This document shows positions 1 through 15,866 of a stretch of DNA of 32,000 bases, one piece after another (the first letter of the stretch is position 1; every line of letters begins with the position of its first letter). The position numbers and the translations under genes were made by a program. This DNA comes from an uncultured Clostridia bacterium. Its GTDB lineage: Bacteria > Bacillota > Clostridia > DSM-8532. The notes under the pieces are model-generated. The model was given only the letters and a program-made list of their open reading frames with translations. It made no database searches and was not told the DNA's origin. Location of the stretch: the NCBI GenBank assembly GCA_942493335.1, contig OW818693.1, positions 3,936,166 to 3,968,165 on the forward strand, read 5' to 3'.

Positions 1-941
1 ATCAGGCCGTGACGGATATCGTAACCCGCCCGGAGCGAAGCTTCGACATCCGAACCGTATGCAGGGTAGATGTCCACGGCGAACTGCAGTTTCTTCTTCT
101 CCGCCAGGCGGATCAGGCGCGACGTGACCTCGTAATCGTACGGTCCGTGCGAATCCTTCGCACAGATGGATACGGTGTGTTCATCCGTTTCCAGATCATC
201 CCCGACTGCGCCCATGTCGACGGAAATCATTTCGACCAGATCCTCAGGCAAGCCGGCCGAGCCGCCGTGCCCCACTTCCTCGTAGGTGGTGAAAAGCAGC
301 CAGGTTTTCCGGGCAGGGACCACGCTCTTCTCCTTCATCCACTCCGCCAGCGCGACCAGGATGCCGGCCGAAGCCTTGTCGTCCAGATGACGGCTCTTGA
401 TGAAACCGGAAGAGGTGACAACTGTGCGGGGATCGAAGGCGATGAAGTCTCCGGCACAGATGCCAAGCTTCACCGTGTCCTCGCGGGTGGAAACCTTCTC
501 GTCCAGGACGACCTCCATGGTCGTATCGTCCCGCTTGGCGTTCTTCACGTCCTCGCTGACATGCGCCGATGGCTGATTCAGCTGGAGCGTGCCGGAATAA
601 GTTCTGCCATCGCGTGTGAAAACCGTGCAATTCTCCCCTTCCAGGGTGTTTTCCGCGAAGCCGCCGATTTTCGTCATGCGCAGACGGCCGTTGGGTTTGA
701 CGGAGCGGACCATGCCGCCGAGGGTATCCACATGGGCGGCAAATGCGACAGGGGAACCGGTACCGCCCAAATCGACGAGGACGGATCCTTTCCGGGTCCG
801 GACCGGCGTGTAGCCCAAGGCGGTGAACGTCTCGAAAAGATGGGAGGTGACGGCTGCAGTATATCCGGAAGGACTGGGAATGCCACACAGTCCGACAATG
901 TGCTCGATTGCACGGTTGATGGGCGTTTTTCCTATTTTCAT
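1..941 (-). CDS. M42 family metallopeptidase (glutamyl aminopeptidase / FrvX-like); C-terminus runs off the window edge
   Basis: Not in the ORF track because it is open at the window edge. Hand translation of the reverse strand from ATG at 941-939 gives MKIGKTPINRAIEHIVGLCGIPSPSGYTAAVTSHLFETFTALGYTPVRTRKGSVLVDLGG... and ends ...AVDIYPAYGSDVEASLRAGYDIRHGLI, typical of M42 peptidases. GGAGGAGG RBS lies just upstream (plus-strand cctcctcc at about 947-954). Track ORFs 9..1019(+) and 244..990(-) are wrong-frame shadows. Confidence 0.85.
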   Translation of the reverse strand, partial: MKIGKTPINRAIEHIVGLCGIPSPSGYTAAVTSHLFETFTALGYTPVRTRKGSVLVDLGGTGSPVAFAAHVDTLGGMVRSVKPNGRLRMTKIGGFAENTLEGENCTVFTRDGRTYSGTLQLNQPSAHVSEDVKNAKRDDTTMEVVLDEKVSTREDTVKLGICAGDFIAFDPRTVVTSSGFIKSRHLDDKASAGILVALAEWMKEKSVVPARKTWLLFTTYEEVGHGGSAGLPEDLVEMISVDMGAVGDDLETDEHTVSICAKDSHGPYDYEVTSRLIRLAEKKKLQFAVDIYPAYGSDVEASLRAGYDIRHGL

Positions 942-1057
942 GTCTTCCTCCTCCGATGGATGCAATGGAAAATTCCAACCCATTATACACCCGTTTCCTG
1001 TGTGGGCATCAAACTTTGAGGGTAAATTCACTATTGTCGGAATACTGCGAATGTCAA

Positions 1058-1086
1058 TGCGAAGATAATGGCATGTGTGGTATTTT
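1058..1086 (+). promoter_or_regulatory. Possible sigma-A promoter for the agr-like cassette (TGCGAA-N17-TATTTT with TG at -15/-14)
   Basis: TGCGAA at 1058-1063, a 17-nt spacer ending in tgTGg, and TATTTT at 1081-1086, about 95 nt upstream of the small ORF. A direct TGCGAA repeat 12 bp upstream (1046-1051) overlaps it. Motif match by eye only. Confidence 0.3.
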
Positions 1087-1180
1087 GGATGGGTACCGGC
1101 AATGGTGGCGAGTTTGGAGGCGTTCCTGGTTTTGTTGAAAATGTCTATGCCGAAGACAGATCGGTAGGAAAGGAATCCGC

Positions 1181-1315
1181 ATGAAGAATAGCTGGATGCA
1201 GAAGATATTGAAATGGGTGGGCGCGTCAGCCCTGACAGTTGCAGCACTCGCCCCATTGCTCACCACATGGTTGTTCACACAGGAAGCGGAATGCCCGAAG
1301 CATCTGCAGGCCTGA
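1181..1315 (+). CDS. agrD: AgrD-like autoinducing-peptide precursor (44 aa), absent from the ORF track
   Basis: Hand translation gives MKNSWMQKILKWVGASALTVAALAPLLTTWLFTQEAECPKHLQA*. RBS AGGAAAGGA lies 6 nt upstream. It has an amphipathic/hydrophobic N-terminal leader, a short hydrophobic core and a charged tail with a P-K-x-L motif like clostridial AgrD tails. It sits directly upstream of the AgrC/AgrB genes. Confidence 0.6.
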   Translation: MKNSWMQKILKWVGASALTVAALAPLLTTWLFTQEAECPKHLQA

Positions 1316-1385
1316 TCTTGTATTGGAATCCCTGTTGCAACCGGAAATCATCCGATACTCATCACCCGATGGGAGCGTTTTCCAG

Positions 1386-2720
1386 ATGAACAGATTACCC
1401 CTTGATATTGTCGGTACCCTTTTTGAGGCCTTCATCATTTATCTGTTTCACGGAATCCTGTCCGGAAAAAAGAGTGATCTGACAGTGCGACCCTTGCGCG
1501 TTGCGCTGTTTTTCATCCTGTTTGTCGGTGTGAACAACTTGTTGAGCTTCTACATGCCGATCGGTCTGGGCACTCTCTTTGTGACGGTGTCCGCCATCCT
1601 GATGGTGTATGGGTTTCTGCATGCAAACCTTCTGAGTTCCGTCCTCGTCGTGGTCGCATCCCTGCTGATGATCTCGGTCGTGGAGCTGCCATTGGCCTTG
1701 TTGATGGTTGCGGTGACCGGTATGTCGATAGACCAGATCATTGCCGATGATCGGACGTATCTGGTTCTTTTCGCGGTAGGAAAACTGTTCGAAGTATTCC
1801 TTGCCTTGCTTGTCTTCAGAAGCCGGCTCTCTTTTGAGCGGTTCCGCCTGTTGCAGCGGGAAGCCTCCTTGATAGCCGACCTCATCATCCAGCTTTTCCT
1901 GATGCTGATGATCGTCCTTCTTTCCGTGTTCGGTACGGTGAATCAGGAAAACTCGCTGATGTATACGATTTTTGCGCTGACCATCCTGCTCGCGCTCTTC
2001 GGCCTCGGGGTCATGGATCTGCGGGAACGGGAGCGAACCACCACCATTGTCGGGAAATTCAAGGTGCGTGAACAGCAGATTCGCAACATGAAACAGGTCA
2101 TTTCGGTCATAAGGCGCGAAAAGCATGATTTCATGAATCATATTTCGACCATTCAAGGGATGGTGTCCTTGAACCGGCCAAACGCCCTTGATGCGATCGG
2201 AAGCTATCTCTCGCGCATCAACGATTCGCTTCAGGTATCCTTCAGGACCTTCCAGACCGGAAACGATTATCTGGACGGTTTGCTTGCGATCAAGAACAAT
2301 GTCGCCGTACAGCAGAACATCACTTTTCTGGTGGAGGTGGATGCGCCCTTCGACCGCATTGCCATCCCTGAAACCGACTTGATCAGCATCGTGAGCAATT
2401 TGCTTGACAACGCGTTTGATGCCTTTCACGACATGGCGGTTGAAAAACCATACATTCATCTTTCCACCCGCTTTCAGGAGAATGGGGTGGAGTTGGTCAT
2501 TTCGGACAATGGGCGTCCGATCCCCATGGAAATCAGCGAACGGGTCTTCGAGGAGGGATTTTCAACCAAGTCGGAGCTGGAAGGTGAACGCGGGTTTGGA
2601 TTGGCCATCACACGACAGTTCGTCCAGCGGGCGAAGGGCAGTATCTACCTTGTGAGTCATGCCGATGAAACAGCCTTCCATATCCACATGCCTTCCGTAG
2701 CCGTGGTGAAGCCTGCATGA
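1386..2720 (+). CDS. agrC: AgrC-like membrane sensor histidine kinase (about 6-7 TM segments, SpoOB-type H-box, GHKL ATPase)
   Basis: Part of track ORF 1239..2720. The likely start is ATG 1386 (MNRLPLDIVGTLFEAF...), because the upstream extension is non-protein-like and overlaps agrD. The multi-TM N-terminal half is followed by H-box REKHDFMNHISTIQGMV, N-box NLLDNAFDA, G1 ISDNGRPI and G2 GFGLAI. No receiver domain is present. Confidence 0.8.
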   Translation: MNRLPLDIVGTLFEAFIIYLFHGILSGKKSDLTVRPLRVALFFILFVGVNNLLSFYMPIGLGTLFVTVSAILMVYGFLHANLLSSVLVVVASLLMISVVELPLALLMVAVTGMSIDQIIADDRTYLVLFAVGKLFEVFLALLVFRSRLSFERFRLLQREASLIADLIIQLFLMLMIVLLSVFGTVNQENSLMYTIFALTILLALFGLGVMDLRERERTTTIVGKFKVREQQIRNMKQVISVIRREKHDFMNHISTIQGMVSLNRPNALDAIGSYLSRINDSLQVSFRTFQTGNDYLDGLLAIKNNVAVQQNITFLVEVDAPFDRIAIPETDLISIVSNLLDNAFDAFHDMAVEKPYIHLSTRFQENGVELVISDNGRPIPMEISERVFEEGFSTKSELEGERGFGLAITRQFVQRAKGSIYLVSHADETAFHIHMPSVAVVKPA

Positions 2721-3304
2721 GCGGGTTCGTCCGCAGGGTTGCCAATGCGGTTGGCAGGGCGAATCCGCAGTATTCGCCCGAAACGCTTGAATCTGTTGCC
2801 TACGGCCTTCAGGTGATCTTCAATGATGCCACGAAATTGGCGATCCTTTTCCTTCTTTTTGGATTTCTCTTTTCACCGGTTGAATACTTGGTCCTGCTTG
2901 TTTGCTGGACCCTTCCGCATCTGTTCATGGGCGGCTTCCACAATCGGACCTGGCTCGGTTGCCTGGCGTCCGCCTTGGTCTGCCAAGGGTCGATCCTGTT
3001 GCTTTCCCGGTACACCGATCCTGCCGCTGTCATCCGCATTGCCGCGCTTGTGGCAGGTCTCGGGCTGGTTCTCCTCTTGGCGCCGGCTGACCACCGGAAC
3101 AAGCCCATCCGTAGTCTCCGAAAGCGGAAGCAGTTCAAATGGCTATCCTGCATCACCTATTTCGGGGTATCGGGAGCATCATTTCTGTTGCCCGGCTCTT
3201 GGGGACATATCGCCTTCTGGACGCCGGTCTTCCTGGTTCTCCTGATGGTTGCGGGAAAATGGGCCCGACGGGTACAGGCGCGTGCCACACCGGAAGTCGG
3301 ATGA
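2717..3304 (+). CDS. agrB: AgrB family accessory gene regulator protein B (AgrD-processing membrane cysteine peptidase)
   Basis: Polytopic membrane protein with catalytic His...Cys spaced as in S. aureus AgrB H77/C84 (GGFHNRTWLGC, H to C = i+7). It also has the conserved APADHRNKPI segment (compare APAATKKKPIP). Its ATG overlaps the agrC stop (ATGA at 2717-2720), indicating translational coupling. Confidence 0.85.
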   Translation: MSGFVRRVANAVGRANPQYSPETLESVAYGLQVIFNDATKLAILFLLFGFLFSPVEYLVLLVCWTLPHLFMGGFHNRTWLGCLASALVCQGSILLLSRYTDPAAVIRIAALVAGLGLVLLLAPADHRNKPIRSLRKRKQFKWLSCITYFGVSGASFLLPGSWGHIAFWTPVFLVLLMVAGKWARRVQARATPEVG

Positions 3305-3329
3305 TGATCCGTGTCCCGGTCAGGCAAGG

Positions 3330-4766
3330 TCATTTCAGGGATCCGGCCGAAAGCCCCGAATCCCATACCGACAGTCCATCCCGGTCCGCCAGTGCACCGG
3401 CATAGACGCCATCCTTCATGTCACGGACAAACGCGCCATTCCGATCGAAAAGCCTGTAGCGCGCATAACCGTTGGCAAGGGCCATTTCAGCCATCACGTA
3501 CGGCAGTGTCGCCAATCGGTTGTAGGCTTCCATGGAGGCCTGCCAGGGTGTCGGCAGATCCGCCTTGGTTGTTTCCACGGTCAGACAGGGCTTCTGGGTT
3601 TCGTTCGCGACAAAATCACCGAAATAGCCGCTGTAATTATCCGACAGGTCGGTCGGCGTCACACTGTAATGCGTGATGCCGCCTGCCTTGATGGCATATC
3701 GCTTTGATTCGGCATTGTAGGAGGCTGAAAGGTAGGGACGGTCCCAATAGATTACATTGCCCATGCTGTGAAGACTCAGAACAATTCTGTAATTCTCACG
3801 CTTCACGAGGGATGCAAGCGCCTTGGTTTCAGGTTCGCTGGCGGGCTTTGCCCCTGAATAGAACATGGCGGCGGGAATCCTTGAATACAGGCCACGCGAG
3901 AGGGTGGCGCCATTCTGTCGTTTTCCCCATAAGTCGATCCAATGCCCTGCTTTGCCGTCATAGTAAATGGCGGGAAAATTCCTGTTCAGATCAACGCCGG
4001 ACGCATTTGCCTTGAAAATGGGGAAACGCGAAGGGTTGATGCTGTTCAGAAAAGCGAGGATGCCTGGAACGGTAAAGGGTGCTTTTCCATACTTTACGAG
4101 ATCATAACCATCCGGATTGCTGAGAACGACAAAGTCGAACGAGCATTCCGACATGAGGGCGGACATGTCCAGCAGGGGGAGATGCCCTTCGGCAACCGTA
4201 TCTTTTGCATAATTTGCCAGAATCCGATAGGCGATGTACGGATTGGCCGTTTCTCGTGCATGTGTTCCGGCTTCGACCAGAATGGCCGGCTTGCCGCGCT
4301 GCAGCCATGCTTGCTCGAAAGCGGCCTGGGTCGTGATGTTGGCCGGGGTGGTCGGAGTGATCGGGTCTGTCAGAGGTGCTGACAGGTCCATGTCAGAGGA
4401 TGTTCCTGACGAAACAGGAAGAGATGCGAGGGGGCCTGGATCGGGTGACAAGGGACTTGATGTCGGTTCGGAGGCTGACGGAACAAACGGTGAAGCCAAC
4501 CGCATGCGCAGGATGTCCCGGCCGTTGGCGGTCCGGCCGATGACGATGTGGCTGATCAAATCCGGATAGGCGGCCTCGAGCCGAAGCAATTCGTCATTGA
4601 TCTGGCGGGAAGTGAGTTTGGCAAAACGTTCCGGGTTCATGACGACAAAAGGAATTGAGGCGGATGACGCATTCGCGTGGGTGACGGGGAAAACCAGGAA
4701 CAGGACCGTCACAAGCAGGATGAACGCCAAACCGGCAGGATGTCTTTCCCTGTTGCTTCTGGGCAT
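3330..4766 (-). CDS. Secreted M14 family zinc carboxypeptidase (gamma-D-glutamyl-meso-DAP peptidase-like) with a Ser/Pro/Thr-rich insertion
   Basis: Signal peptide MPRSNRERHPAGLAFILLVTVLFLVFPVTHA|N. M14 motifs are GTHARET (HxxE zinc site), VVLSNPDGYD, VDLNRNFP and SLHSMGNVIYW. GGAAGGAGG lies upstream. Confidence 0.85.
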   Translation of the reverse strand: MPRSNRERHPAGLAFILLVTVLFLVFPVTHANASSASIPFVVMNPERFAKLTSRQINDELLRLEAAYPDLISHIVIGRTANGRDILRMRLASPFVPSASEPTSSPLSPDPGPLASLPVSSGTSSDMDLSAPLTDPITPTTPANITTQAAFEQAWLQRGKPAILVEAGTHARETANPYIAYRILANYAKDTVAEGHLPLLDMSALMSECSFDFVVLSNPDGYDLVKYGKAPFTVPGILAFLNSINPSRFPIFKANASGVDLNRNFPAIYYDGKAGHWIDLWGKRQNGATLSRGLYSRIPAAMFYSGAKPASEPETKALASLVKRENYRIVLSLHSMGNVIYWDRPYLSASYNAESKRYAIKAGGITHYSVTPTDLSDNYSGYFGDFVANETQKPCLTVETTKADLPTPWQASMEAYNRLATLPYVMAEMALANGYARYRLFDRNGAFVRDMKDGVYAGALADRDGLSVWDSGLSAGSLK

Positions 4767-4901
4767 ATGCGGTCAACCTCCTTCCAGGATATGTGCGGAT
4801 TTGCCAAGGGTGTCGCTGTCGCGCATGGGTATATTACCACGAAACAGCGGGGTTCTCCCGGTTTGCTGCCGGACGCGGTTGTCTGCAGCACAACGCGGCC
4901 C

Positions 4902-4931
4902 TGCAAATTCCCTGAATGTTCATGATATAAT
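4902..4931 (+). promoter_or_regulatory. Putative extended -10 promoter for the aminopeptidase P gene
   Basis: TGCAAA (4902-4907), an 18-nt spacer, then TGaTATAAT (TG 4923-4924, TATAAT 4926-4931), about 70 nt upstream of ATG 5000. Confidence 0.45.
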
Positions 4932-4999
4932 GGAATGCAAAAAGAGTGCAACACGCCCGGAGAGGCGCTGCCGGTCTCACAGGCGGGAAGGGGATTGAA

Positions 5000-6796
5000 A
5001 TGACTGAACGCATGGAAGCATTGCGAAAGGAAATGACGAAGGAGGGGTTGGACGCATGGCTTGTTCCCAGCGGCGATCCGCACCTCAGCGAATATGTGGC
5101 GGATCACTGGAAGACGAGGGCCTGGCTGTCGGGCTTCACCGGGTCCGCAGGCACACTTCTGGTTACTTTGGATAAGGCTCTGCTGTGGACCGACGGACGC
5201 TACTTCGTCCAGGCGGAGGGTGAACTGGCCGGGAGCGGCATCGAGCTGGTGAAAATGGCCACCCCCGGCTTTCCCACCGTTCTTGAGTGGCTGGAGAAGA
5301 ATCTTCCCGACGGAGCGCGGCTTGGTCTGGATGCTACGCTGTATGCCGCCGCCACGTTGAAGGAATATGAAAAGAAGCTGAGCTTGAAGCAGGGCGTCAT
5401 CGTCGGTGATTTTGACCTGCCCGGGCGGATATGGCCGGGTCGTCCGGCAGTGCCCGCTACGCCTGTCTTTGTACATGATGCGGAATATGCCGGGTTCACC
5501 CCATCGGAGAAGATCACCCGGATCCGTGAAAGAATGACTGCGGAAAAGGCGGACCATTACCTGCTTTCCGCTTTGGATGGCATTGCCTGGCTGTTGAATG
5601 TCCGCGGCGCGGATGTGAAGAACAATCCGGTCACCATTGCCTATGTGCGCATTGGCCAGCAGGATGCGGAACTTTTCATTGATGCGGACAAACTTGATGA
5701 AACCGTTCGCGCGCATCTGTCCGCGAACGGCGTAACGGTTTCCCCGTATGAAACCGTCCTGACTTCGATCGCCAAGCTTCCTGCAGGGTCCCGTGTGGCC
5801 TATGACGCCAAATTGACGAATGCGGGCCTGGCAAAAGCCGTTCCGCATTCCTGCACACCGGTCGAGACCGACGATTTCGTCGTCAAAGCCAAGGCCGTGA
5901 AGAGCGCGGTGGAGATCGAGAACCTGAAACGCTGCCAGGCTCGGGATGGCGCCGCCATGGTGCGCTTTCTCATATGGCTGGAACGGGAGATGGAAAGGCT
6001 TGAGGAAAGCGGAACAGACGGACCGGATGTGACCGAGCTGGATGTTGCTGCAAAGCTGGCGGAGTTGCGTGGCGCCCTTCCCCTGAATCGTGGAGAGAGC
6101 TTCGACACGATTGCCGCGTATGGGTCCAATGCCGCGATGATGCACTACAGCGCGACACCGGAGAGCCATGCCGTGCTGGAACCCCACGGGCTGCTGCTTG
6201 TGGACAGCGGCGGCCAATATCTGGACGGAACAACGGACATCACCCGCACCATTGCGCTGGGGCCTGTTACGGATGAAGAGCGAATGGCATGCACGTTGAC
6301 CCTCCAGTCCCATATCGGGCTGGCCAGGGCTCATTTTCTGGAGGGCAGCACCGGCTCGAACCTGGACGTGCTTGCGCGTCTGCCCATGTGGCGGAACGGA
6401 ATGGACTACAAATGCGGAACAGGGCACGGCGTGGGGTATTTCCTCAGCGTGCACGAAGGCCCGCAGGGTTTCCGGCAGACCCATTCGCCCGTGAAACTCG
6501 AACCGGGGATGATCATCACCAACGAACCGGGTGTCTACCGGGCCGGGAAACTTGGTGTCCGTACCGAGAACACCGTGCTGGTGGTGCCGTCCTGCCAGAC
6601 GGACGATGGAACCTTCTTCAAACTGGAGACGATCTCCTGCTGTCCGATCGATGTGGGAACACTGGATCTTGCCCGTCTTTCCGCCGATGAACGGGAGTGG
6701 CTGAATGAATACCACGCCTTCGTGTTTGCAAGGGTGTCCCCGCATCTGGATGCATCCGAAGCAGCCTGGTTGAAGACGGCGACAGCCCCGGTTTGA
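5000..6796 (+). CDS. Xaa-Pro aminopeptidase / aminopeptidase P family protein (M24B)
   Basis: Track ORF 4946..6796. The preferred start is ATG 5000 (MTERMEALRKEMTKEGLDAWLVPSGDPHLSEY) after GGGAAGGGGA. It has a creatinase-like N-terminal region and M24 metal ligands: DSGGQYLDGTTDITRT, HGVGYFLSVHEGP, NEPGVY, RTENTV. Confidence 0.9.
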   Translation: MTERMEALRKEMTKEGLDAWLVPSGDPHLSEYVADHWKTRAWLSGFTGSAGTLLVTLDKALLWTDGRYFVQAEGELAGSGIELVKMATPGFPTVLEWLEKNLPDGARLGLDATLYAAATLKEYEKKLSLKQGVIVGDFDLPGRIWPGRPAVPATPVFVHDAEYAGFTPSEKITRIRERMTAEKADHYLLSALDGIAWLLNVRGADVKNNPVTIAYVRIGQQDAELFIDADKLDETVRAHLSANGVTVSPYETVLTSIAKLPAGSRVAYDAKLTNAGLAKAVPHSCTPVETDDFVVKAKAVKSAVEIENLKRCQARDGAAMVRFLIWLEREMERLEESGTDGPDVTELDVAAKLAELRGALPLNRGESFDTIAAYGSNAAMMHYSATPESHAVLEPHGLLLVDSGGQYLDGTTDITRTIALGPVTDEERMACTLTLQSHIGLARAHFLEGSTGSNLDVLARLPMWRNGMDYKCGTGHGVGYFLSVHEGPQGFRQTHSPVKLEPGMIITNEPGVYRAGKLGVRTENTVLVVPSCQTDDGTFFKLETISCCPIDVGTLDLARLSADEREWLNEYHAFVFARVSPHLDASEAAWLKTATAPV

Positions 6797-6898
6797 GACG
6801 AATCGATGCCGCCTGGTTGAAGACGGCGACAGCTCAGGTTTGAGTTGAATCGAAGCCGAGTGGCTGAAGAGATCGACGGTTCCGGTATGAGGCGAATC
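6758..6898 (+). repeat. Three tandem 47-bp repeats duplicating the last 12 codons plus stop of the aminopeptidase P gene
   Basis: Units are 6758-6804, 6805-6851 and 6852-6898. By hand alignment unit 1 versus unit 2 is about 41/47 identical and unit 1 versus unit 3 about 35/47. Each unit reads as a C-terminal tail ending in TGA: EAAWLKTATAPV*, DAAWLKTATAQV*, EAEWLKRSTVPV*. Confidence 0.85.
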
Positions 6899-6906
6899 AA
6901 AGACGC

Positions 6907-6944
6907 ATGACTGAAGGACGGCTGCATAGCCGTCCTTCAGTCAT
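6907..6944. terminator. Bidirectional terminator-like hairpin between convergent genes
   Basis: Perfect 17-bp stem ATGACTGAAGGACGGCT / AGCCGTCCTTCAGTCAT with a 4-nt loop (gcat). It lies between the aminopeptidase P gene (+) and the ABC permease gene (-). The flanking T-tracts are weak. Confidence 0.6.
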
Positions 6945-7024
6945 TTACATATCTCTTTCGAGGTTTTTTTCGGTTCTACTTGAGTCCTTGACCGATTCCA
7001 TTCGAGAATCTTTCATTTCACGGT

Positions 7025-7849
7025 TCATTCCAGATTCAGTTTCTTGGCGAGGATGGCATTCGTGATGGCGAAATAACCGGCTGAAACAAGCAAGGAAAAT
7101 AGAATCAGGATCCACATCGCATGGTGGAGAACCGGTGAAATGCCGTTCATGTTCGGATTGATGAGGAGCGCGTTCTCTGGATTTCTGGCATTGAAAAGGG
7201 TCGACAGTCCGAGGCCCGGTATGGGGGTGGAAGCCATCGCCACAAAAAGAATTTGCACGACGGTGCTCAATCCGATGTATGCGCCGATGGATGCCAGAAT
7301 CCTGTGGTCGTTCACCAGATGCCCGATGGCGATGGCGGCGTAGATCATCAGGGGGCCGGAGAACAGGGCGATGAAAAAGGTGAGTATGACCTGAAACACG
7401 AGGAGCGGGGCGCCTTTTGTGTCGGTGATGCCTTGAATGATTTCCGACAGGACATGTCCAGCTTCGCGCAGGAATCCCCCATCGGCTGCGATGATGAGAA
7501 CCGACAATATGGCGACAATGCCGCTTAGCAGCGTCCAGAGCGATGAAATCAGCAGCTTTCCGGTGATATGGACCCAGGGATTCACCGGAAGGGTATGCAT
7601 CAGGTACCCTTCTTCGGACAGCAGATTCTTGTAGAACCGTTGAATCAGCACGATGAAAGTCATGACGAACATGCCGATCAGAATGATGACATACAGGGTC
7701 ATGCTGATGACGGCAGGCGCCTGCCAACTGTCGGGAGACAAAAGCATGATGACCCGGTTGATCAGGGCGGACAGCAAGGCGGCCGCAAAGAGGGGCAGGA
7801 AGATGCGGGTCGTAGCTTTCAACTCGTATTTCATGATTTTGTTCAGCAT
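7025..7849 (-). CDS. ABC-2 type transporter permease (membrane subunit of the YtrA-type ABC system)
   Basis: 274-aa polytopic membrane protein (MLNKIMKYELKATTRIFLPLFAAALLSALINRV...). Its start overlaps the ATPase stop by 7 nt, and it is the last gene of the GntR-ATPase-permease operon. Confidence 0.8.
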   Translation of the reverse strand: MLNKIMKYELKATTRIFLPLFAAALLSALINRVIMLLSPDSWQAPAVISMTLYVIILIGMFVMTFIVLIQRFYKNLLSEEGYLMHTLPVNPWVHITGKLLISSLWTLLSGIVAILSVLIIAADGGFLREAGHVLSEIIQGITDTKGAPLLVFQVILTFFIALFSGPLMIYAAIAIGHLVNDHRILASIGAYIGLSTVVQILFVAMASTPIPGLGLSTLFNARNPENALLINPNMNGISPVLHHAMWILILFSLLVSAGYFAITNAILAKKLNLE

Positions 7850-8541
7850 TTGAAAACCTCCCTGAACAGGGTATCAACCGATTTTCCCCGTTCGCTCCGG
7901 ATGGTGTCGACCGGCGCGGAAAGCACGACCTGACCGTGCTGGAGAAACACCACATGATCCAGGATGTTCTCGATGTCGGCGATGAGGTGCGTGGATAGGA
8001 TGACAGTTGCGTTTTCGTTGTAATTCCGGATGATGGTTTCAAGGATGTAGTCCCTGGCAGCCGGATCCACGCCGCCGATGGGTTCGTCCAACAGATACAG
8101 GTCTGCATTTCGGCTCATGACGAGGATCAGTTGCACTTTTTCCTTCGTTCCCTTCGACAGCGTCTTGATCTTGTCGTTCGGATCGATGCCAAGCCGGGCA
8201 AGCATGTCGTTGGCCTTCATCCTGTCGAAATCGGAATAGAAGTCCTTGAAGAATTCAAGGATCTGACTGACCCGCATCCAATCGTTCAGGTAGGTTTTCT
8301 CCGGCAGATAGGAGACGATCCGCTTTGTCGCGATGCCGGGTTTTTCGCCGGCAATGCGCAATTCTCCTGATGTTGGAGACAACAGTGCGTTTGCCAGCTT
8401 GATGAAGGTGGTCTTGCCGCTGCCGTTTGGTCCGAGCAGGCCGACGATCTGGCCGCGTTCGAGGGAAAGGTTCATGCCCGCAAGGGCATGTTTGCCGCCA
8501 AACGACTTTTTCAAGTCGTGACATTCCAGAATTGCACTCAT
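7843..8541 (-). CDS. ABC transporter ATP-binding protein
   Basis: Walker A GPNGSGKTT, signature-like LSKGTKEK, Walker B LYLLDEP and H-loop STH. The start overlaps the GntR stop (ATGA-type overlap at 8538-8541). Confidence 0.92.
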   Translation of the reverse strand: MSAILECHDLKKSFGGKHALAGMNLSLERGQIVGLLGPNGSGKTTFIKLANALLSPTSGELRIAGEKPGIATKRIVSYLPEKTYLNDWMRVSQILEFFKDFYSDFDRMKANDMLARLGIDPNDKIKTLSKGTKEKVQLILVMSRNADLYLLDEPIGGVDPAARDYILETIIRNYNENATVILSTHLIADIENILDHVVFLQHGQVVLSAPVDTIRSERGKSVDTLFREVFKC

Positions 8542-8909
8542 TTGTTCAACTCCTCCAGCATCCGGCTGATCCGTGCCAGCGTCTCCGCCTTCCCAAATCC
8601 CAGCCTGCGCATGTTGTCGAGAAATGCCTCGATTTGTTCCTGGGCGATGGTTTCTTTTGCCAGTTCGACCATTTTCGCATCCTCCGTTACAGAGCGTCCG
8701 CTGGTCCGGTGTGTTGTCAGCAGCCCCGCCTCTTCAAGCTGGGCAAGGGCCTTCTGCATCGTATTCGGGTTCACCGAGGCTTCCTGCGCAAGGTCCCGGA
8801 CGGAAGGCAATTTGCTTCCCAAAGGATAGATGCCGGAAATGATCCGGATTTCCACCTGTTCGATCAGCTGGGCATACAAAGGTCTGTCTGTTTTCAAGTC
8901 CCAGGGCAT
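8538..8909 (-). CDS. GntR family transcriptional regulator, YtrA subfamily (short, 123 aa)
   Basis: Winged-HTH sequence PLYAQLIEQVEIRIISGIYPLGSKLPSVRDLAQEASVNPNTMQKALAQLEEAGLLTTHRTSGRSV with a short C-terminal extension. GAGGAGGG RBS lies 5 nt upstream of ATG 8909. Confidence 0.9.
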   Translation of the reverse strand: MPWDLKTDRPLYAQLIEQVEIRIISGIYPLGSKLPSVRDLAQEASVNPNTMQKALAQLEEAGLLTTHRTSGRSVTEDAKMVELAKETIAQEQIEAFLDNMRRLGFGKAETLARISRMLEELNK

Positions 8910-8922
8910 GTCATCCCTCCTC

Positions 8923-8958
8923 TGTATTATTGTATTAAGTGCTTAATACAATAATACA
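8923..8958 (-). promoter_or_regulatory. 36-bp near-perfect palindrome, likely the YtrA/GntR autoregulatory operator
   Basis: TGTATTATTGTATTAAG-tg-CTTAATACAATAATACA has 17-bp perfectly complementary arms around a 2-bp centre. It lies between the -10 box and the RBS of the GntR gene and overlaps the -10. Confidence 0.7.
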
Positions 8959-8979
8959 TACGATGCATGGCCCTGTCAA
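8951..8979 (-). promoter_or_regulatory. Sigma-A type promoter of the GntR-ABC operon
   Basis: On the minus strand: TTGACA (plus 8974-8979), a 17-nt spacer, then TATTAT (plus 8951-8956). Confidence 0.7.
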
Positions 8980-9040
8980 TACGGATTCCGGTGAATTCCA
9001 TGAGCATGGGATGAGAATTCAAGTTGACTTTTCAGGACAA

Positions 9041-9082
9041 ATGAAAACCCGGCCGCCCCATCCATACGGAAGGGCTGCCGGG
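9041..9082 (-). terminator. Rho-independent terminator downstream of thpR
   Basis: The minus strand reads CCCGGCAGCCC-ttccgtatggatg-GGGCGGCCGGG followed by TTTTCATTTG. The stem is 6+4 bp with one mismatch. It lies about 65 nt after the thpR stop. Confidence 0.65.
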
Positions 9083-9147
9083 CATGTCTTGCTTGCATTG
9101 CGTGCGGAGCTTCAATGAGAGGCATTGGGGAGCAGGGCGCAATCGTT

Positions 9148-9699
9148 TCAAGGTGCGGCGGATTCCGGATCGGGAAGAATGACATGGGCGATTTCCGTGT
9201 ATTTCAGTTCCCCGTCTTCACGGGCGGAACGCATGAGGCTGATGCGGCCCACCTGCATCTCCAGCGGAGCAGGTTCTGCGTGCTTCACCTGAAAATTCCG
9301 AGGCATGACGATTTCCCGGCCGAGCGTCAGATGCGGGACATAGGGTTGTACCTCGAAGGTGAAGCCCAGTTCGGTCGCTGCGGCTGACAAGATTTCATGC
9401 ACCTTCTGCAAATCCGCACTAGGCGTCGTCCCGAGCCACCAGATGTCACGGTAGCGCTTCCGAAAATGGCCCAGGCCGTTGAAGACAAGCGGAAAGGCCG
9501 GCAGCTTGACGGACTGCAGGGCTGTGGCAAGGCTGTCGATCCGATCAGGGGCCACCTCCCCGATGAAGAGGAGGGTCAGATGAAGGTTTTCCTGCTTTGT
9601 GAAGTTGCCTTTCTCCGCGGTTTCGCGAAGCAACTGGGTTGTCAGGGAAAGAGCGGACTTGATGGGATCCGGCAATGTGATGGCAAAAAAGACACGCAT
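9148..9699 (-). CDS. thpR: RNA 2',3'-cyclic phosphodiesterase (2H phosphoesterase, ThpR/LigT family)
   Basis: Two H-x-T-x motifs (NLHLTLLF and VPHLTLGR). The preferred start is ATG 9699 (MRVFFAITLP) with GGAAAGGAAGG upstream. The track ORF extends to 9801 with a non-protein-like leader. Confidence 0.85.
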   Translation of the reverse strand: MRVFFAITLPDPIKSALSLTTQLLRETAEKGNFTKQENLHLTLLFIGEVAPDRIDSLATALQSVKLPAFPLVFNGLGHFRKRYRDIWWLGTTPSADLQKVHEILSAAATELGFTFEVQPYVPHLTLGREIVMPRNFQVKHAEPAPLEMQVGRISLMRSAREDGELKYTEIAHVILPDPESAAP

Positions 9700-9818
9700 G
9701 AAGGACCTTCCTTTCCGGTTCCCGGGAACCGGCAAATGACAATTCGCGAAGTTCGGCACGGATGCAATCCGCTTTACTTCCATCATACCATTCCGGTGCA
9801 ATGGGCGGTGAAAAAGGG

Positions 9819-9849
9819 TTGACAGGGAGACAGAAACGGATCATACAAT
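9819..9849 (+). promoter_or_regulatory. Putative promoter for the C39-like protein gene
   Basis: TTGACA (9819-9824) and TACAAT (9844-9849). The 19-nt spacer is longer than optimal. Confidence 0.4.
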
Positions 9850-9888
9850 GAAGCATGGACTGCAGCGTTGGCAGACGGGAGGAAGAGA

Positions 9889-10560
9889 ATGACGGAAAAC
9901 AATACGGGAAACCGGGGAAACGTTTGGAACAGCGCGCTTGCGCATCCTGAGAACCTGCATGTCCGAACTGCCGATGGCGAATGCTTTTACGGCTGCGAAC
10001 AGGCGTGGTTCGGAACCGAATGGCAGCAGCGTGCCGGCTGTGGGCCGAGTGTTGCCTCGAATATCATGCTGTACCTGCATCAGGGAGGAAAGCTCCATCT
10101 TCCGTATGACCTGCCGAATCAGGGTGGTTGCCTGCAACTGATGGAAGCCATGTGGGCGCATGTCACACCGACCCGCATGGGGGTGAACACGGTTCAGCTT
10201 TTCTCTGACGGCCTTCATGCGTTCGCGGGACAACATGGTTACAAACTCGACTGCGATGCACTGTTGTATCCGAAACGGTTGGAAAGTCGCCCCACGTTCG
10301 CGGAAGTATTGGCTTTTCTAGCGGAAGGGCTTTCCCTCGACTGCCCCATCGCTTTTTTGAATCTGAGCAACGGGGAGGTCGGAAACCTGGATGCATGGCA
10401 CTGGGTCACCATTGTGCGGCTTGATGTGGAAGATGGAGGAGCACGCGCCTTTGTCGAAATCTATGACGGAAACGCCTCCGCCCGCGTGGATTTGCGCATG
10501 TGGTGCGATACCACGACAGAGGACGGAGGGTTCGTGCATTTCCGCCGGATTGAAGAATGA
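9889..10560 (+). CDS. Hypothetical cytoplasmic protein with a C39-like (Peptidase_C39_2-type) papain-fold cysteine peptidase signature
   Basis: Start at ATG 9889 after GGGAGGAAG (the track starts at TTG 9868). The residues occur in the order Gln-Cys-His-Asp/Asn: QQRAGCGPSVASNIMLYL, then AWHWVTIV, then EIYDGN. There is no signal peptide. The call is by motif recall only. Confidence 0.5.
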   Translation: MTENNTGNRGNVWNSALAHPENLHVRTADGECFYGCEQAWFGTEWQQRAGCGPSVASNIMLYLHQGGKLHLPYDLPNQGGCLQLMEAMWAHVTPTRMGVNTVQLFSDGLHAFAGQHGYKLDCDALLYPKRLESRPTFAEVLAFLAEGLSLDCPIAFLNLSNGEVGNLDAWHWVTIVRLDVEDGGARAFVEIYDGNASARVDLRMWCDTTTEDGGFVHFRRIEE

Positions 10561-10650
10561 ATTGGCTTCATCCGTAACGGCTTTCAGCTAAATGGATTCA
10601 TCCGAAGTGGCCTCGTCAGATATGGCTTCATCCGTAACGACTTCTTCCGT
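10561..10650. repeat. Three tandem 30-bp repeats (plus a degenerate fourth to 10680) spanning the RNase D stop codon
   Basis: Units are 10561-10590, 10591-10620 and 10621-10650. TGGCTTCATCCGTAACG is identical in units 1 and 3, and unit 2 has TGGATTCATCCGAAGTG. The repeats encode the acidic RNase D tail (VVTDEAISDEATSDESI*). Confidence 0.75.
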
Positions 10651-11862
10651 AATGACTTCACCGTTCCGGATACGGAGGCTGAGCCTGCCCTCCATCAAAC
10701 GCTGCAGATCATCTCCGATCAGACCTTTGCGCCATCCGCGGAGCAGCGGACTTCCCTCTTCATCGCCGGAAGCCAGCTGTTCCAAATCCCCCTGGGAAGC
10801 CAGCAGGGGAGCGGCAACGCGGTGCTCGGTGGAGCGCACGCGGACTAGCGCGCCCATCAGCTTCACAACTCCCTCGATATCCATGGCGGCGTGGTGGCGG
10901 CGTTCGATACGGGGCAGTTCGGCATCGGAAAGGGCCATTCCCGCAGCGACTGCTGCCAGCAGACCGACACCACGATCTCCCAGCGCACGTGGATCGATGC
11001 CGCGGATCTCAGCCAGATCGGTGGCATTGGCCGGTTTTCTGCGGGCGATTTCCAACAGCGACTCATCCTTGATGATCCACTGCCGGGGCAGATCCCGGCG
11101 CATCGCATCGCGCTCCCGCCAGGCCGTGACGGTTTGCAGGACGCCGAGTTGGCGCCGGTTCAGGGTGGAAGCCCGTTTGACACGTCGGAACTGTTCGTCC
11201 GGAACCGATTCGAAGGTGGCCGGATCGGAAAGCTGTGCGAAATCATCTGCCAGCCATTCCATACGGCCATCCCGTTCGAGGCGCCTGCGCAGCTTCTCGT
11301 ACATCGGCTTCAGATGGATGACGTCATTCAGCGCATACTCCACCTGCTTGGCGGTCAGCGGACGGCGTGACCAGTCGGTGTAGGATTCGGACTTGTCGAT
11401 CTTGACGTCGAGGAGCTCCTCCAGCAGGCGGGAGTAGCCGATTTGAGACTGGAATCCCGCCAGCGTCGCGGCCACCTGCGTATCAAAAACAGGAACGGGC
11501 GGGCGTCCGCACAGACGCGTCATCAGTTCGATGTCCTGATAGGCGGCGTGGAGGACTTTCAGGATGCTGTTGTCGAGCAACAGCTCCACGAGCGGGGACA
11601 GATCCTCCAGCTCAAGCGGATCGATAATGGCGGAAATGTCACCGGCGGATGCCTGTACCAGGCAGAGCTTGGTATAATAGGTCTTGCCGGACATGAATTC
11701 CGTGTCGAGGGCGAGTATGCCCGTTTTTCTGGCGGCGTCGGCAAGAGCCGTGAAACCGGAGTTGTCGCGAATGAACAAGATGGGCCGTCCTTCCTGCCGC
11801 GGTCGTGCCGTCGGCAATGAACCTGTACCCATCGATTTTACACGACTGGCAGGAAAAAGCAT
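10588..11862 (-). CDS. rnd: Ribonuclease D (DEDD 3'-5' exonuclease plus HRDC domain)
   Basis: Matches E. coli RNase D motifs: LALDTEF..., HAAYQDIE, SESYTDWSRRPLTAKQVEYALNDVIHL, followed by an HRDC-like region. The start is uncertain. ATG 11862 and ATG 11832 lack an RBS. In-frame TTG 11778 follows AGGAAGGA and gives E. coli-like spacing to the ALDTEF motif. Confidence 0.85.
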   Translation of the reverse strand: MLFPASRVKSMGTGSLPTARPRQEGRPILFIRDNSGFTALADAARKTGILALDTEFMSGKTYYTKLCLVQASAGDISAIIDPLELEDLSPLVELLLDNSILKVLHAAYQDIELMTRLCGRPPVPVFDTQVAATLAGFQSQIGYSRLLEELLDVKIDKSESYTDWSRRPLTAKQVEYALNDVIHLKPMYEKLRRRLERDGRMEWLADDFAQLSDPATFESVPDEQFRRVKRASTLNRRQLGVLQTVTAWRERDAMRRDLPRQWIIKDESLLEIARRKPANATDLAEIRGIDPRALGDRGVGLLAAVAAGMALSDAELPRIERRHHAAMDIEGVVKLMGALVRVRSTEHRVAAPLLASQGDLEQLASGDEEGSPLLRGWRKGLIGDDLQRLMEGRLSLRIRNGEVITEEVVTDEAISDEATSDESI

Positions 11863-11976
11863 ACAGAAAGGATCCGTCAGACCCTTTTTATGTCATGAAT
11901 CGATTCTACGAAGGCAAAGGAGAACAATGAGGATGAAACAGACAATGGGGTTGAACCGGGCCGGGGCAGGTGCGCG

Positions 11977-13191
11977 ATGAGTCGTGTCGGGAACCCGTTT
12001 GCCGCACTGAAACACAGGGATTTCCGCATCTATTGGTTCGGCATGTGCGTATCCCTGATCGGGACATGGATGCAGAACATCGCCCAGCCCTGGCTGGCTT
12101 ATTCGTTGACGGATTCTCCCTTCCTGCTCAGCCTCGTCGGCGCGCTCCAGTTTACCCCCATGCTTCTTTTCTCCCTGTTTGCCGGTACGTGGATTGATCG
12201 GATTCCGAAAAAAACGATTCTTCTGTTCACACAATCCGCCTCGTTGGTCATTACGCTCGCGTTTGCCCTGCTGAATACGCTGGGGGTGATCCGATACTGG
12301 CATATCCTGGTCCTGGCGACGCTGCTGGGTGTGGTGAACACGCTGGACATGCCGACGCGCCAATCCTTCGTGATTGAGCTGGTGGGCCGCGGGGACCTGA
12401 TGAATGCGATTGCGCTGAACTCCACGATTTTCAACCTGGCACGGATCATCGGCCCGGCGATTGCGGGCATTGTCATGACCGCTTGGGGTGTTACCGCATG
12501 TTTTTATGTCAATTCATTCAGTTTTGCCGCCGTCCTCATCAGCCTGTTTTTGATTCATCCGGCACATATCCTGGCGCCAACCGCGAAAGATGGGAATGGC
12601 GTGATTCATCAGATTTCCGAGGGTCTTCGTTATGTCTGGAAAACACCGGTGCTGCTTGAAACCATCCTGATGACCGCGGTGGTCGGCACATTTGCCATGA
12701 ACGCGGGCGTCCTTGTGCCGGTATTTGTGAAGGAAGTGCTGCAACAGAAGGAAGCCGGATTCAGTCTTCTCATGTCGTTGATGGGGATCGGCTCCTTTCT
12801 GGGGGCGCTGACAATGGCTTCCTTGAGCAAGTCGGGTCCTAAAAAGTCCCTGCTGATGACACTCCCGATTGTCATTGCGTTGAGTCTTGCGCTGACGGGA
12901 ACAACAGGGCTTCTTCCCTTAACGGGGATCTGTCTCGCCATCCTGGGTTTCGGAATTGTCTGGTTCAGTTCCACGGCAAATTCCATGGTCCAGATCCATA
13001 CGGAAGACAGATATCGGGGAAGGGTGATGAGTCTCTACACGCTTGTCTTTGGCGGACTGATCCCCATCGGCAATTTGTATGCGGGCACCATCACGAACCA
13101 TTTTGGCGCGCGAATCGGCTTTTTCGCTTGCAGCGGTATCATTGTGGTCTTGTACGTGGTTGTGGTCATCGCGCGGAAAAAGGGCCGCTGA
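11977..13191 (+). CDS. MFS transporter (MFS_3 / enterobactin-exporter-like subfamily)
   Basis: About 12 TM segments. The N-terminus FAALKHRDFRIYWFGMCVSLIGTWMQNIAQPWLAY is typical of this subfamily. Confidence 0.88.
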   Translation: MSRVGNPFAALKHRDFRIYWFGMCVSLIGTWMQNIAQPWLAYSLTDSPFLLSLVGALQFTPMLLFSLFAGTWIDRIPKKTILLFTQSASLVITLAFALLNTLGVIRYWHILVLATLLGVVNTLDMPTRQSFVIELVGRGDLMNAIALNSTIFNLARIIGPAIAGIVMTAWGVTACFYVNSFSFAAVLISLFLIHPAHILAPTAKDGNGVIHQISEGLRYVWKTPVLLETILMTAVVGTFAMNAGVLVPVFVKEVLQQKEAGFSLLMSLMGIGSFLGALTMASLSKSGPKKSLLMTLPIVIALSLALTGTTGLLPLTGICLAILGFGIVWFSSTANSMVQIHTEDRYRGRVMSLYTLVFGGLIPIGNLYAGTITNHFGARIGFFACSGIIVVLYVVVVIARKKGR

Positions 13192-13199
13192 CGCGGCCC
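13182..13199 (+). terminator. GC-rich hairpin overlapping the MFS stop codon
   Basis: GGGCCGC-tgac-GCGGCCC, a 7-bp perfect stem preceded by AAAAA and followed by a T-poor tail. It lies between convergent genes. Confidence 0.4.
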
Positions 13200-13288
13200 T
13201 TGCGGTTCGGTGCTTATGGGGGGACGCTCGGACGGACAACACCGAGTGATCCGGAAAGACCTCGCGGTTCGGTGCATGAAAAGAACTG

Positions 13289-14161: not shown

Positions 14162-14243
14162 GTCGAATCCTCCTTTTATCCTGTCCGGCTTTTCATTTTT
14201 TCCTGTCTGGGTTTTCTTATTCTTCTATCCTGCTTATTTCCTT

Positions 14244-15812: not shown

Positions 15813-15866
15813 ACCGGGATGCCTTCTGCGTCAGGGGCGCGTTGAACCTGAAGAATTCCGGCGAAT

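What the first reader, a model, noticed from the sequence alone, without database searches (positions are those of the whole stretch)
1181..3304. Non-canonical agr cassette: order D-C-B, C/B translational coupling, and no response regulator within 32 kb
Canonical agr loci are agrB-agrD-agrC-agrA, and many clostridia have agrBD with agrCA nearby. Here the putative precursor comes first, followed by the AgrC-like kinase, then AgrB. The AgrB ATG overlaps the kinase stop (ATGA at 2717-2720).

The cassette is bounded by an M42 peptidase gene (divergent) and an M14 peptidase gene (convergent). No CDS in the window carries a receiver or LytTR domain; the only regulators are GntR, AraC and CarD. Coupling the signal-processing enzyme to the receptor rather than to the precursor is unusual. 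An orphan AgrC also implies a remote or non-LytTR partner.
Basis: partly seen in the sequence, partly recalled or inferred. Interest (0 to 1): 0.65.

Follow-up and report, generated by a model that had tools for sequence, protein, structure and literature searches.

The report
Three-gene agr peptide-signalling cassette, known layout
This is a real peptide quorum-sensing cassette (signal precursor, receptor kinase, processing enzyme, in that order, with no regulator alongside). The same layout is standard for a kinase family spread through the Clostridia and was published in 2022, so this is a divergent new member, not a new kind of system.

Summary
Three co-directional genes lie at 1181-3304:
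- a 44-aa AgrD-like precursor;
- a 444-aa membrane histidine kinase;
- a 195-aa AgrB (PF04647, 89 bits).

The kinase stop and the agrB start overlap (ATGA, 2717-2720). No receiver domain occurs in any window ORF.

The layout is not a peculiarity of this locus. Of 80 genome loci found with the kinase family, 59 have agrB directly after the kinase. An AgrD-like ORF lies directly upstream of the kinase in 64 loci (BLAST clustering, which also took in L001 and L002). Piatek et al. 2022 described exactly agrD1-agrC1-agrB1 without agrA in Clostridium autoethanogenum and related acetogens.

The "AgrC" is not a canonical AgrC. Its core is CitA/DcuS-like (SPOB_a plus HATPase_c). Its 7-helix sensor matches no model.

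Three things go beyond the finding:
- The predicted ring nucleophile is threonine (ring TWLFT). I found no paper describing this.
- Spo0E-like genes (25 loci) and Spo0A-like regulators (3 loci) sit next to related cassettes. This points to Spo0A as a candidate partner.
- Environmental metatranscriptomes hold an abundant short RNA covering about 1047-1419 (agrD), with almost nothing from agrC-agrB.

Verdict: new member of a known kind, modest interest.

The parts
1047..1419 (+). Abundant short transcript carrying agrD: about 133 nt of leader, the ORF, then about 100 nt that end about 30 nt inside the kinase gene, just before a T-run at 1420-1424.
   Evidence: RNA contigs from five metatranscriptomes of four studies cover only this stretch:
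- X4: 1061-1419, depth 1191.
- X3: 1048-1417, depth 80.5, with adapters on both sides.
- X8: 1060-1413, depth 53.7.
- X2: 1090-1412, depth 29.2.
- X13: 1047-1217 and 1253-1413.
In X2, X3, X4 and X16 the rest of window 1-20000 has contig depth of 3.7 or less.
The strand is inferred from adapter orientation. There is no Rfam match and no unusual fold (z 0.26).
1181..1315 (+). agrD-like precursor, 44 aa: MKNSWMQKILKWVGASALTVAALAPLLTTWLFTQEAECPKHLQA.
   Evidence: A family profile matches it at E 1.4e-8. Orthologous ORFs lie in the same position in L001, L002, L095, L096 and L097. It aligns without gaps to 29 other family members.
1265..1279 (+). Predicted core (ring) peptide T29-W-L-F-T33. Thr29 is the cyclisation nucleophile.
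   Evidence: The position 16 residues from the C-terminus is only S (41), T (17) or C (8) in 66 distinct family peptides. It is followed by four variable residues. The register matches S. aureus AgrD, where Pro is the 6th residue of the follower (from memory).
1280..1312 (+). Follower (AgrB-recognition) peptide QEAECPKHLQA, with the family-invariant Cys38-Pro39.
   Evidence: C38 is invariant, and P39 and L42 are at least 90% conserved, in alignment A3. The family consensus is [HYQ]Q[PV][KE]CP[DEK]ELLK.
1386..2720 (+). Orphan sensor histidine kinase (AgrC analogue):
- about 7 hydrophobic helices in residues 1-210;
- SpoOB/CitA-type dimerisation domain with His247 (nt 2124-2126);
- HATPase_c at residues 329-436.
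   Evidence: Domains and family scores are. E245, K246, H247, D248, N251, H252, N338, N342, G403 and G405 are invariant, and N375 and G376 nearly invariant, in 31 homologues. Full-length homologues number 67 representatives at E 1e-30 or better out of 1.84 billion proteins.
2717..2720 (+). ATGA overlap of the kinase stop codon and the agrB start codon.
   Evidence: Read. The same 4-nt overlap occurs in L001, L095, L096 and L097 and in nine of the 61 loci with a measurable kinase-agrB junction.
2717..3304 (+). agrB: membrane cysteine endopeptidase/cyclase. His75 is at nt 2939-2941 and Cys82 at nt 2960-2962.
   Evidence: PF04647 scores 89 bits. G72, G73, H75, C82, P123 and N128 are invariant in 61 AgrB sequences. 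Four to five hydrophobic segments are present.

Best explanation
This is a working agr-type autoinducing-peptide module of the clostridial agrD-agrC-agrB type. It sits in an unnamed, 55% G+C Bacillota lineage from freshwater and sediment.

Proposed steps:
1. agrD is made from an abundant short transcript.
2. The 44-aa precursor inserts in the membrane through its amphipathic and hydrophobic N-terminal part.
3. AgrB (His75/Cys82) removes the 11-residue follower QEAECPKHLQA. It joins the new C-terminus (Thr33) to the side chain of Thr29, giving a five-residue lactone, TWLFT.
4. An unidentified peptidase removes the leader.
5. The exported peptide is sensed by the 7-helix domain of the adjacent kinase, which autophosphorylates on His247.
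6. The phosphoryl group goes to a regulator encoded elsewhere. The best lead from related loci is a Spo0A-type regulator, not a LytTR AgrA.
7. Low read-through from agrD, plus the overlapping stop and start codons, gives little kinase and AgrB in a fixed ratio and much precursor.

Shown: gene identities, order, overlap, conserved catalytic residues, family-wide synteny and RNA abundance.
Inferred: the ring chemistry, ligand-receptor pairing, the partner regulator and the attenuation mechanism.
For: AgrB membership and catalytic dyad.

AgrD:
- family profile hit;
- 27 of 30 members scanned match TIGR04223;
- strict S/T/C column, variable core and conserved follower.

Kinase catalytic boxes are invariant.

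Synteny:
- agrB directly follows the kinase in 59 of 80 genome loci;
- an AgrD-like ORF lies directly upstream in 64 loci;
- all six members of the window's own clade show D-C-B in four different genomic neighbourhoods.

Literature: the same operon, without agrA, in C. autoethanogenum. A double agrD deletion there changed metabolism and the proteome (PMC8748961).

Expression: agrD RNA depth is 29-1191 against 3.7 or less elsewhere. One RNA contig (2560-2802) spans the agrC/agrB junction.

Spo0A lead:
- Spo0E-like genes (PF09388) lie within 3 kb in 25 loci;
- Spo0A-type regulators lie next to the module in L039 and L042;
- a Spo0A-N-like receiver lies in L069;
- the kinase's dimerisation domain is of the SpoOB type.
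Against: - The window's AgrD does not reach any curated AgrD model directly.
- A Thr nucleophile has no precedent that I could find. The papers read mention only Cys and, rarely, Ser (search).
- The kinase fails the AgrC equivalog, and its sensor matches nothing. Ligand pairing therefore rests on synteny alone.
- No Spo0E or Spo0A gene lies near the cassette in the window or in its five closest relatives. The Spo0A lead comes from relatives only about 33% identical.
- The source genome could not be reached. The left flank and the genome's set of regulators are unknown.
- RNA depths come from assembled contigs, not reads. Strand is inferred from adapters only.
Confidence: 0.8

Rival explanations
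1. The cassette is canonical in function. Its partner is an ordinary LytTR AgrA that simply lies elsewhere, for example just left of the window, which shows only 1.2 kb on that side.
For: Remote partners are known for agr signals: VirS/VirR in C. perfringens and RgaS/RgaR in C. difficile (titles and abstracts). The left flank cannot be seen. Piatek et al. also leave open an AgrA encoded elsewhere.
Against: The kinase core is CitA/DcuS/SpoOB-type, not the HPK10 type that pairs with LytTR regulators. No regulator lies within 8-10 kb upstream in L001 or L002 except an unrelated His_kinase/AraC pair. Across 80 loci, the only regulators directly next to the module are Spo0A-like. My LytTR seed search found nothing in 1.5 Mb, but it had no positive control.
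Confidence: 0.3
2. The kinase is not the receptor of the peptide. It is an unrelated CitA/DcuS-like sensor that happens to lie between agrD and agrB.
For: The best profile matches are DcuS/MalK/DpiB models. The sensor domain has no similarity to AgrC.
Against: The kinase is flanked by agrD and agrB in about 60 loci across many genera and neighbourhoods. It also keeps agrD beside it in loci that lack agrB (the 'system 2' type: L014, L015, L019, L020, L026, L037). It lacks the periplasmic Cache/PAS sensor of CitA/DcuS. Overlapping C/B genes are the rule.
Confidence: 0.06
3. The abundant 370-nt RNA is more than an mRNA. It would be a dual-function regulatory RNA, like RNAIII, that also encodes the peptide.
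For: Its abundance is extreme compared with neighbouring genes, in several environments. It has discrete ends and long untranslated parts of 133 nt and about 100 nt.
Against: The predicted folding is no more stable than that of shuffled sequence (z 0.26). There is no Rfam match. Outside the ORF, the sequence is poorly conserved in L001 and L002, and the agrD-agrC spacer length varies between them. High agrD mRNA levels are already reported for C. autoethanogenum.
Confidence: 0.08
4. The cassette is a decaying remnant with no function.
For: There is no regulator nearby. The AgrD is divergent and fails the curated models.
Against: All three ORFs are intact. Catalytic residues are conserved. The peptide is conserved at protein level in six relatives, with variation confined to three ring residues. 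The RNA is abundant in nature.
Confidence: 0.04

Closest known systems
Clostridium autoethanogenum Agr system 1 (agrD1-agrC1-agrB1; Piatek et al. 2022, PMC8748961)
   Same: - Same gene order and no agrA.
- Same kinase architecture: SPOB_a, HATPase_c and a polytopic N-terminus. The C. ljungdahlii homologue L012 was scanned.
- AgrD has a five-residue core and an 11-residue follower.
- The C. ljungdahlii, C. ragsdalei and C. drakei loci were retrieved with the window's kinase family at 32-35% identity.
   Different: - The kinase is only about 33% identical.
- The follower is QEAECPKHLQA instead of HQPKCPDELLK, so the first Pro of the Pro-X-X-Pro motif is missing.
- The nucleophile is Thr, not Ser or Cys.
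- There is no spo0E-like gene beside it.
- The host is a 55% G+C uncultured lineage, not Clostridium sensu stricto.
Staphylococcus aureus agrBDCA
   Same: - AgrB with a His/Cys dyad spaced H-x6-C.
- Precursor with leader, five-residue ring and a follower whose Pro is the 6th residue.
- A polytopic receptor histidine kinase.
   Different: - Order B-D-C-A against D-C-B.
- AgrA and RNAIII are present there.
- AgrC is HPK10 (HATPase_c_5 only, from memory), while this core is CitA/DcuS-like.
- Thiolactone there, predicted Thr-lactone here.
C. difficile agr3 (phage phiCDHM1; strains NAP07 and NAP08) and agr2 (agrACDB)
   Same: agr3 has agrC, agrB and agrD with no response regulator (PMC3901668). agr2 shows that D-before-B orders exist (PMC3754575 abstract).
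   Different: agr3 was not among the homologues retrieved here, and its kinase family was not compared. agr2 carries a LytTR AgrA.
CitA/DcuS/MalK (HPK5) sensor kinases
   Same: These are the best-scoring profile matches for residues 229-436. They share the SPOB_a dimerisation domain. They also share the G-F-S-T-K motif typical of that group (motif assignment from memory).
   Different: There is no periplasmic Cache/PAS sensor and no adjacent CitB/DcuR regulator. The N-terminus has seven membrane helices instead.

Membership tests
AgrB (PF04647) | Profile score above Pfam's gathering cut-off | tested here: met
   89 bits against a cut-off of 23, residues 8-177.
AgrB (PF04647) | Catalytic His and Cys seven residues apart (H77/C84 in S. 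aureus, from memory) | tested here: met
   H75 and C82 are invariant in 61 AgrB sequences.
AgrD (TIGR04223 / PF05931) | Direct match to a curated AgrD model | tested here: not met
   There were no hits at E up to 1. Of 30 related peptides, 27 do match TIGR04223, and their profile hits the window ORF at E 1.4e-8.
AgrD (TIGR04223 / PF05931) | Cys (or rarely Ser) at the cyclisation position, five residues before the cleavage site | tested here: not met
   The residue is Thr29. That column is S 41, T 17, C 8 in the family. Thr is chemically able to form a lactone, but I found no description of it.
AgrD (TIGR04223 / PF05931) | Charged follower peptide with a conserved Pro, encoded next to agrB | tested here: met
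   The follower is QEAECPKHLQA. Pro39 is at least 90% conserved. It lies in the same operon-like unit as agrB.
AgrC (HPK10; NCBIfam NF046015) | Score above the equivalog cut-off | tested here: not met
   52 bits against a cut-off of 500. The sensor domain alone gives no hit.
AgrC (HPK10; NCBIfam NF046015) | Polytopic sensor of 6-7 helices followed by a histidine kinase core | tested here: met
   About seven hydrophobic segments lie in residues 1-210. The H, N and G boxes are conserved.
AgrC (HPK10; NCBIfam NF046015) | Adjacent cognate LytTR regulator AgrA | tested here: not met
   There is no receiver or LytTR domain in the window. The left flank beyond 1.2 kb was not seen.
AgrC (HPK10; NCBIfam NF046015) | Binds the cognate autoinducing peptide | not testable with these tools
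   Only synteny bears on this.
CitA/DcuS (HPK5) | SpoOB-type dimerisation domain plus HATPase_c | tested here: met
   SPOB_a 34.1 bits (cut-off 28.1) and HATPase_c 64.9 bits. DcuS/MalK model 104.7 bits over residues 229-436, below its full-length cut-off of 520.
CitA/DcuS (HPK5) | Periplasmic Cache/PAS ligand domain between two membrane helices | tested here: not met
   No such domain was found. True CitA-type hits carry PF17203, and this family does not.
Clostridial agrD-agrC-agrB operon (Piatek 2022, system 1) | Order D-C-B on one strand, no agrA | tested here: met
   The same holds in 59 of 80 related genome loci.
Clostridial agrD-agrC-agrB operon (Piatek 2022, system 1) | Kinase homologous over its full length to those of the acetogen operons | tested here: met
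   C. ljungdahlii, C. ragsdalei and C. drakei loci give E-values from 1e-64 to 1e-80 and cover most of the kinase (between residues 1 and 433 of 444).
Clostridial agrD-agrC-agrB operon (Piatek 2022, system 1) | spo0E-like gene beside the operon (present in some members only) | tested here: not met
   The Spo0E profile finds nothing in the window.

The most novel reading that the evidence does not exclude
The signal is a threonine-linked cyclic pentapeptide (TWLFT). That would be a ring chemistry not yet reported for autoinducing peptides. Its receptor, a CitA/SpoOB-type orphan kinase, would pass phosphate directly to a Spo0A-type master regulator. Quorum sensing would then feed straight into the stationary-phase and sporulation switch without any AgrA.
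Probability: 0.2. Interest if true: 0.65.

Novelty: new member of a known kind. Interest (0 to 1): 0.3.

Why it matters
As a gene layout it adds little. D-C-B without agrA is published, and this survey shows it is the norm for a family of roughly a hundred lineages (67 representatives at E 1e-30 or better).

The value lies in what the survey makes testable:
- **The receptor.** The so-called AgrC of these operons is a different kinase family (CitA/SpoOB-type core) recruited to agr signalling.
- **The missing regulator.** Its repeated neighbours, Spo0E phosphatases and Spo0A-like regulators, give a concrete candidate. The question was left open for C. autoethanogenum, and how AgrD1 promotes early sporulation is likewise unresolved in C. 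difficile.
- **The ring chemistry.** A quarter of the precursors, including all six of the window's clade, have Thr where Cys or Ser is expected.
- **Activity in nature.** The agrD transcript of this uncultured organism is abundant enough to be seen in freshwater, sediment and wetland metatranscriptomes. The system is therefore active in nature.

Tried and rejected
- **Source genome.** I tried three times to reach it for the left flank and for its regulators. No record was available.
- **Metagenome scan.** A scan with the window-clade kinase alignment found only relatives about 30% identical, so no new close ones.
- **LytTR search.** A search seeded with S. aureus AgrA written from memory found nothing in 83 loci. 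It had no positive control, so I treat it as inconclusive.
- **Solved structures.** The search gave only generic kinase cores, with the AgrC module no better than HK853.
- **Rfam.** Neither the whole window nor 900-1600 gave any match.
- **Promoter and terminator scan.** There was no plus-strand sigma-70 site upstream of agrD and no terminator at the RNA's 3' end. Counts were no higher than in shuffles.
- **RNA folding.** Folding of the 384-nt RNA and of the agrD-agrC spacer was no better than for shuffled sequence.
- **Direct repeats.** A search for repeats that could be regulator sites upstream of agrD found only weak two-copy matches.
- **Upstream alignment.** The upstream regions of the window, L001 and L002 show little conservation outside the ORFs.
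- **Literature.** Searches for 'agrDCB' and for threonine-lactone peptides found nothing relevant.
- **Flanking peptidases.** I considered that the M42, M14 and M24 peptidases process the peptide, and rejected it. The flanks differ in every relative.
Full report
**Observation.**
- A 44-aa ORF lies at 1181-1315.
- The kinase has a mechanical ORF starting at 1239. Its conserved start (MNRLPLD, shared with relatives) is the ATG at 1386, giving 444 aa ending at 2720.
- A 195-aa ORF lies at 2717-3304. Its ATG overlaps the kinase TGA as ATGA.
- The third ORF is an AgrB by Pfam's own threshold (PF04647, 89 bits against 23).
- The flanking genes are an M42 peptidase (divergent) and an M14 peptidase (convergent).
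- Pfam scans of 25 window ORFs show GntR and AraC regulators but no receiver or LytTR domain. The open reading frame at the right end of the window looks CarD-like by eye but was not scanned.
- A receiver profile run over every window ORF of 30 aa or more gives nothing better than E 1.7.
- The window shows only 1.2 kb to the left of the cassette. The source genome could not be reached.

**The precursor.**
- The small ORF has no direct hit to curated AgrD models.
- Nearly every related locus has an ORF of 43-50 aa directly upstream of the kinase. BLAST clustering finds it in 64 loci.
- A profile built from those ORFs matches the window ORF at E 1.4e-8. Of 30 family members scanned, 27 match TIGR04223 quorum_AgrD.
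- The peptides align without gaps.
- Counting from the C-terminus, position -16 holds only Ser (41), Thr (17) or Cys (8) in 66 distinct sequences. The next four residues vary. The last eleven form a conserved follower, [HYQ]Q[PV][KE]CP[DEK]ELLK.
- This register matches S. aureus AgrD, where Pro is the sixth follower residue (from memory).
- In the window the ring is T29-W-L-F-T33 and the follower is QEAECPKHLQA.
- The five closest relatives (L001, L002, L095, L096, L097) all keep TTW. They vary only the last three ring residues. That is the pattern expected of a specificity-determining signal.
- The papers I could read mention only Cys and, rarely, Ser at this position. A search for threonine found nothing.

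**The processing enzyme.** G72, G73, H75, C82, P123 and N128 are invariant across 61 AgrB sequences. The His-x6-Cys spacing is that of the catalytic dyad known from S. aureus (dyad from memory).

**The kinase.**
- It has about seven hydrophobic helices in residues 1-210, followed by a SpoOB-type dimerisation domain and HATPase_c. The catalytic boxes are conserved in 31 homologues.
- By profile it is not a canonical AgrC. The cytoplasmic core scores 104.7 bits with the DcuS/MalK model. It scores only 52 bits with the staphylococcal AgrC equivalog, whose cut-off is 500.
- The sensor domain alone matches nothing.
- It also lacks the periplasmic Cache/PAS sensor of true CitA/DcuS kinases.
- It is best described as a separate family that plays AgrC's role.
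- The family is small and confined to Clostridia-like Bacillota. It has 67 representatives at E 1e-30 or better among 1.84 billion proteins.
- The window's clade is one sparsely sampled branch: five relatives at 46-52% identity, then a drop to about 35%.

**Synteny.**
- A scan of one genome per species with the kinase alignment gave 80 loci. They include Clostridium ljungdahlii, C. ragsdalei, C. drakei, C. tyrobutyricum, Geosporobacter and Petroclostridium.
- agrB lies directly after the kinase on the same strand in 59 of them.
- In 59 of the 61 loci with a measurable kinase-agrB junction (58 genome loci plus the window, L001 and L002), the junction lies between a 74-nt overlap and a 15-nt gap. 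Nine have the same 4-nt overlap.
- Loci with agrD and kinase but no agrB also occur.
- All six members of the window's clade have D-C-B, in four different neighbourhoods. The three genes therefore travel as a unit, and the flanking peptidases are incidental.

**Literature.**
- Piatek et al. 2022 describe C. autoethanogenum system 1 as agrD1-agrC1-agrB1 without agrA, and system 2 as agrD2-agrC2. They report the same operons in C. ljungdahlii, C. coskatii, C. ragsdalei, C. drakei and C. scatologenes.
- They note a spo0E-like gene downstream and leave the regulator open (PMC8748961).
- Three-gene agr loci without a regulator were also reported in C. difficile and its phage phiCDHM1 (PMC3901668).
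- The architecture is therefore known. The window holds a divergent member.

**The missing regulator.**
- Across the loci, Spo0E-like genes (PF09388 confirmed) lie within 3 kb of the module in 25 loci, mostly on the same strand.
- The only regulators directly next to a module are Spo0A-type proteins in L039 and L042. They carry Response_reg and Spo0A_C, with the SRVERAIRHAIEVAW helix. L069 has a Spo0A-N-like receiver.
- Clostridia phosphorylate Spo0A directly from orphan kinases (reviewed in PMC11210211). agr signals affect sporulation in several species.
- I therefore rank a Spo0A-type partner as the leading candidate for the family. This is an inference.
- It is weaker for the window itself. 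Neither the window nor its close relatives have such neighbours.

**Transcripts.**
- Public metatranscriptomes from freshwater, sediment and wetland samples hold near-identical RNA contigs that cover only about 1047-1419. Depths are 29 to 1191 (four studies, five runs).
- In the four RNA runs laid on window 1-20000, the rest of that stretch shows contig depth of 3.7 or less. Only one run has a contig (2560-2802) across the agrC/agrB junction.
- DNA metagenomes cover the whole region thinly. The pattern is therefore one of expression, not presence.
- In two libraries from different studies the adapters place read 2 on the plus strand. In the usual stranded protocols that means the RNA is sense to agrD (inference).
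- The RNA has no Rfam match and no unusual predicted structure.
- The simplest reading is a very abundant short agrD mRNA. Little read-through would then reach a translationally coupled agrC-agrB pair, which gives a rationale for the D-first order.
- The three ORFs are thus probably co-transcribed only in small part.

**Verdict.** The cassette is a new, divergent member of a known clostridial agr type. The Thr nucleophile, the Spo0A/Spo0E association and the abundant transcript are the points worth following.

Noticed in passing
window 1047-1419: A discrete RNA of about 360-370 nt carrying agrD is abundant in metatranscriptomes from several environments (depth up to 1191). Neighbouring genes are near the detection limit. 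Its 3' end falls about 30 nt inside the kinase gene, before a T-run.
   Followed up: partly
window 1265-1267 (Thr29); L001, L002, L095, L096, L097 and 11 other loci: Threonine occupies the cyclisation position in 17 of 66 AgrD-like peptides, including all six of the window's clade. I found no report of a Thr-linked autoinducing peptide.
   Followed up: partly
window 1292-1294 (Cys38): A cysteine directly before the conserved follower proline is invariant in the 30 aligned family precursors. Canonical AgrD followers have no such residue, and its role is unknown.
   Followed up: no
L039 8573-9391; L042 7000-7812; L069 12011-12409: Spo0A-type response regulators, not next to a spoIVB-like gene and so probably paralogues, lie directly beside the kinase or agrB in psychrophilic Clostridium species. 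The one in L069 is receiver-only.
   Followed up: partly
25 loci, e.g. L054 11778-11924, L005 9505-9627: Spo0E-like phosphatase genes (PF09388) lie within 3 kb of the module. That is far more often than a handful of such genes per genome would predict.
   Followed up: partly
25 loci, e.g. L061 11785-12027: A conserved ORF of about 75-80 aa with no Pfam match lies directly downstream of agrB in the Geosporobacter/Petroclostridium-like branch. It is absent from the window.
   Followed up: no
L028 12157-13605; L048 12131-13588; L062 8214-10948: Some loci carry a second paralogous kinase after agrB, or two kinases in tandem.
   Followed up: no
window 30019-31494: A 491-aa protein combines a copper amine oxidase N-terminal domain, PdaC, DUF3298 and a chagasin-family peptidase inhibitor (I42) domain.
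   Followed up: no
window 3-941, 3330-4766, 4946-6796: Three metallopeptidase genes (M42, M14, M24) surround the cassette. The flanks differ in all relatives, so this looks incidental.
   Followed up: partly
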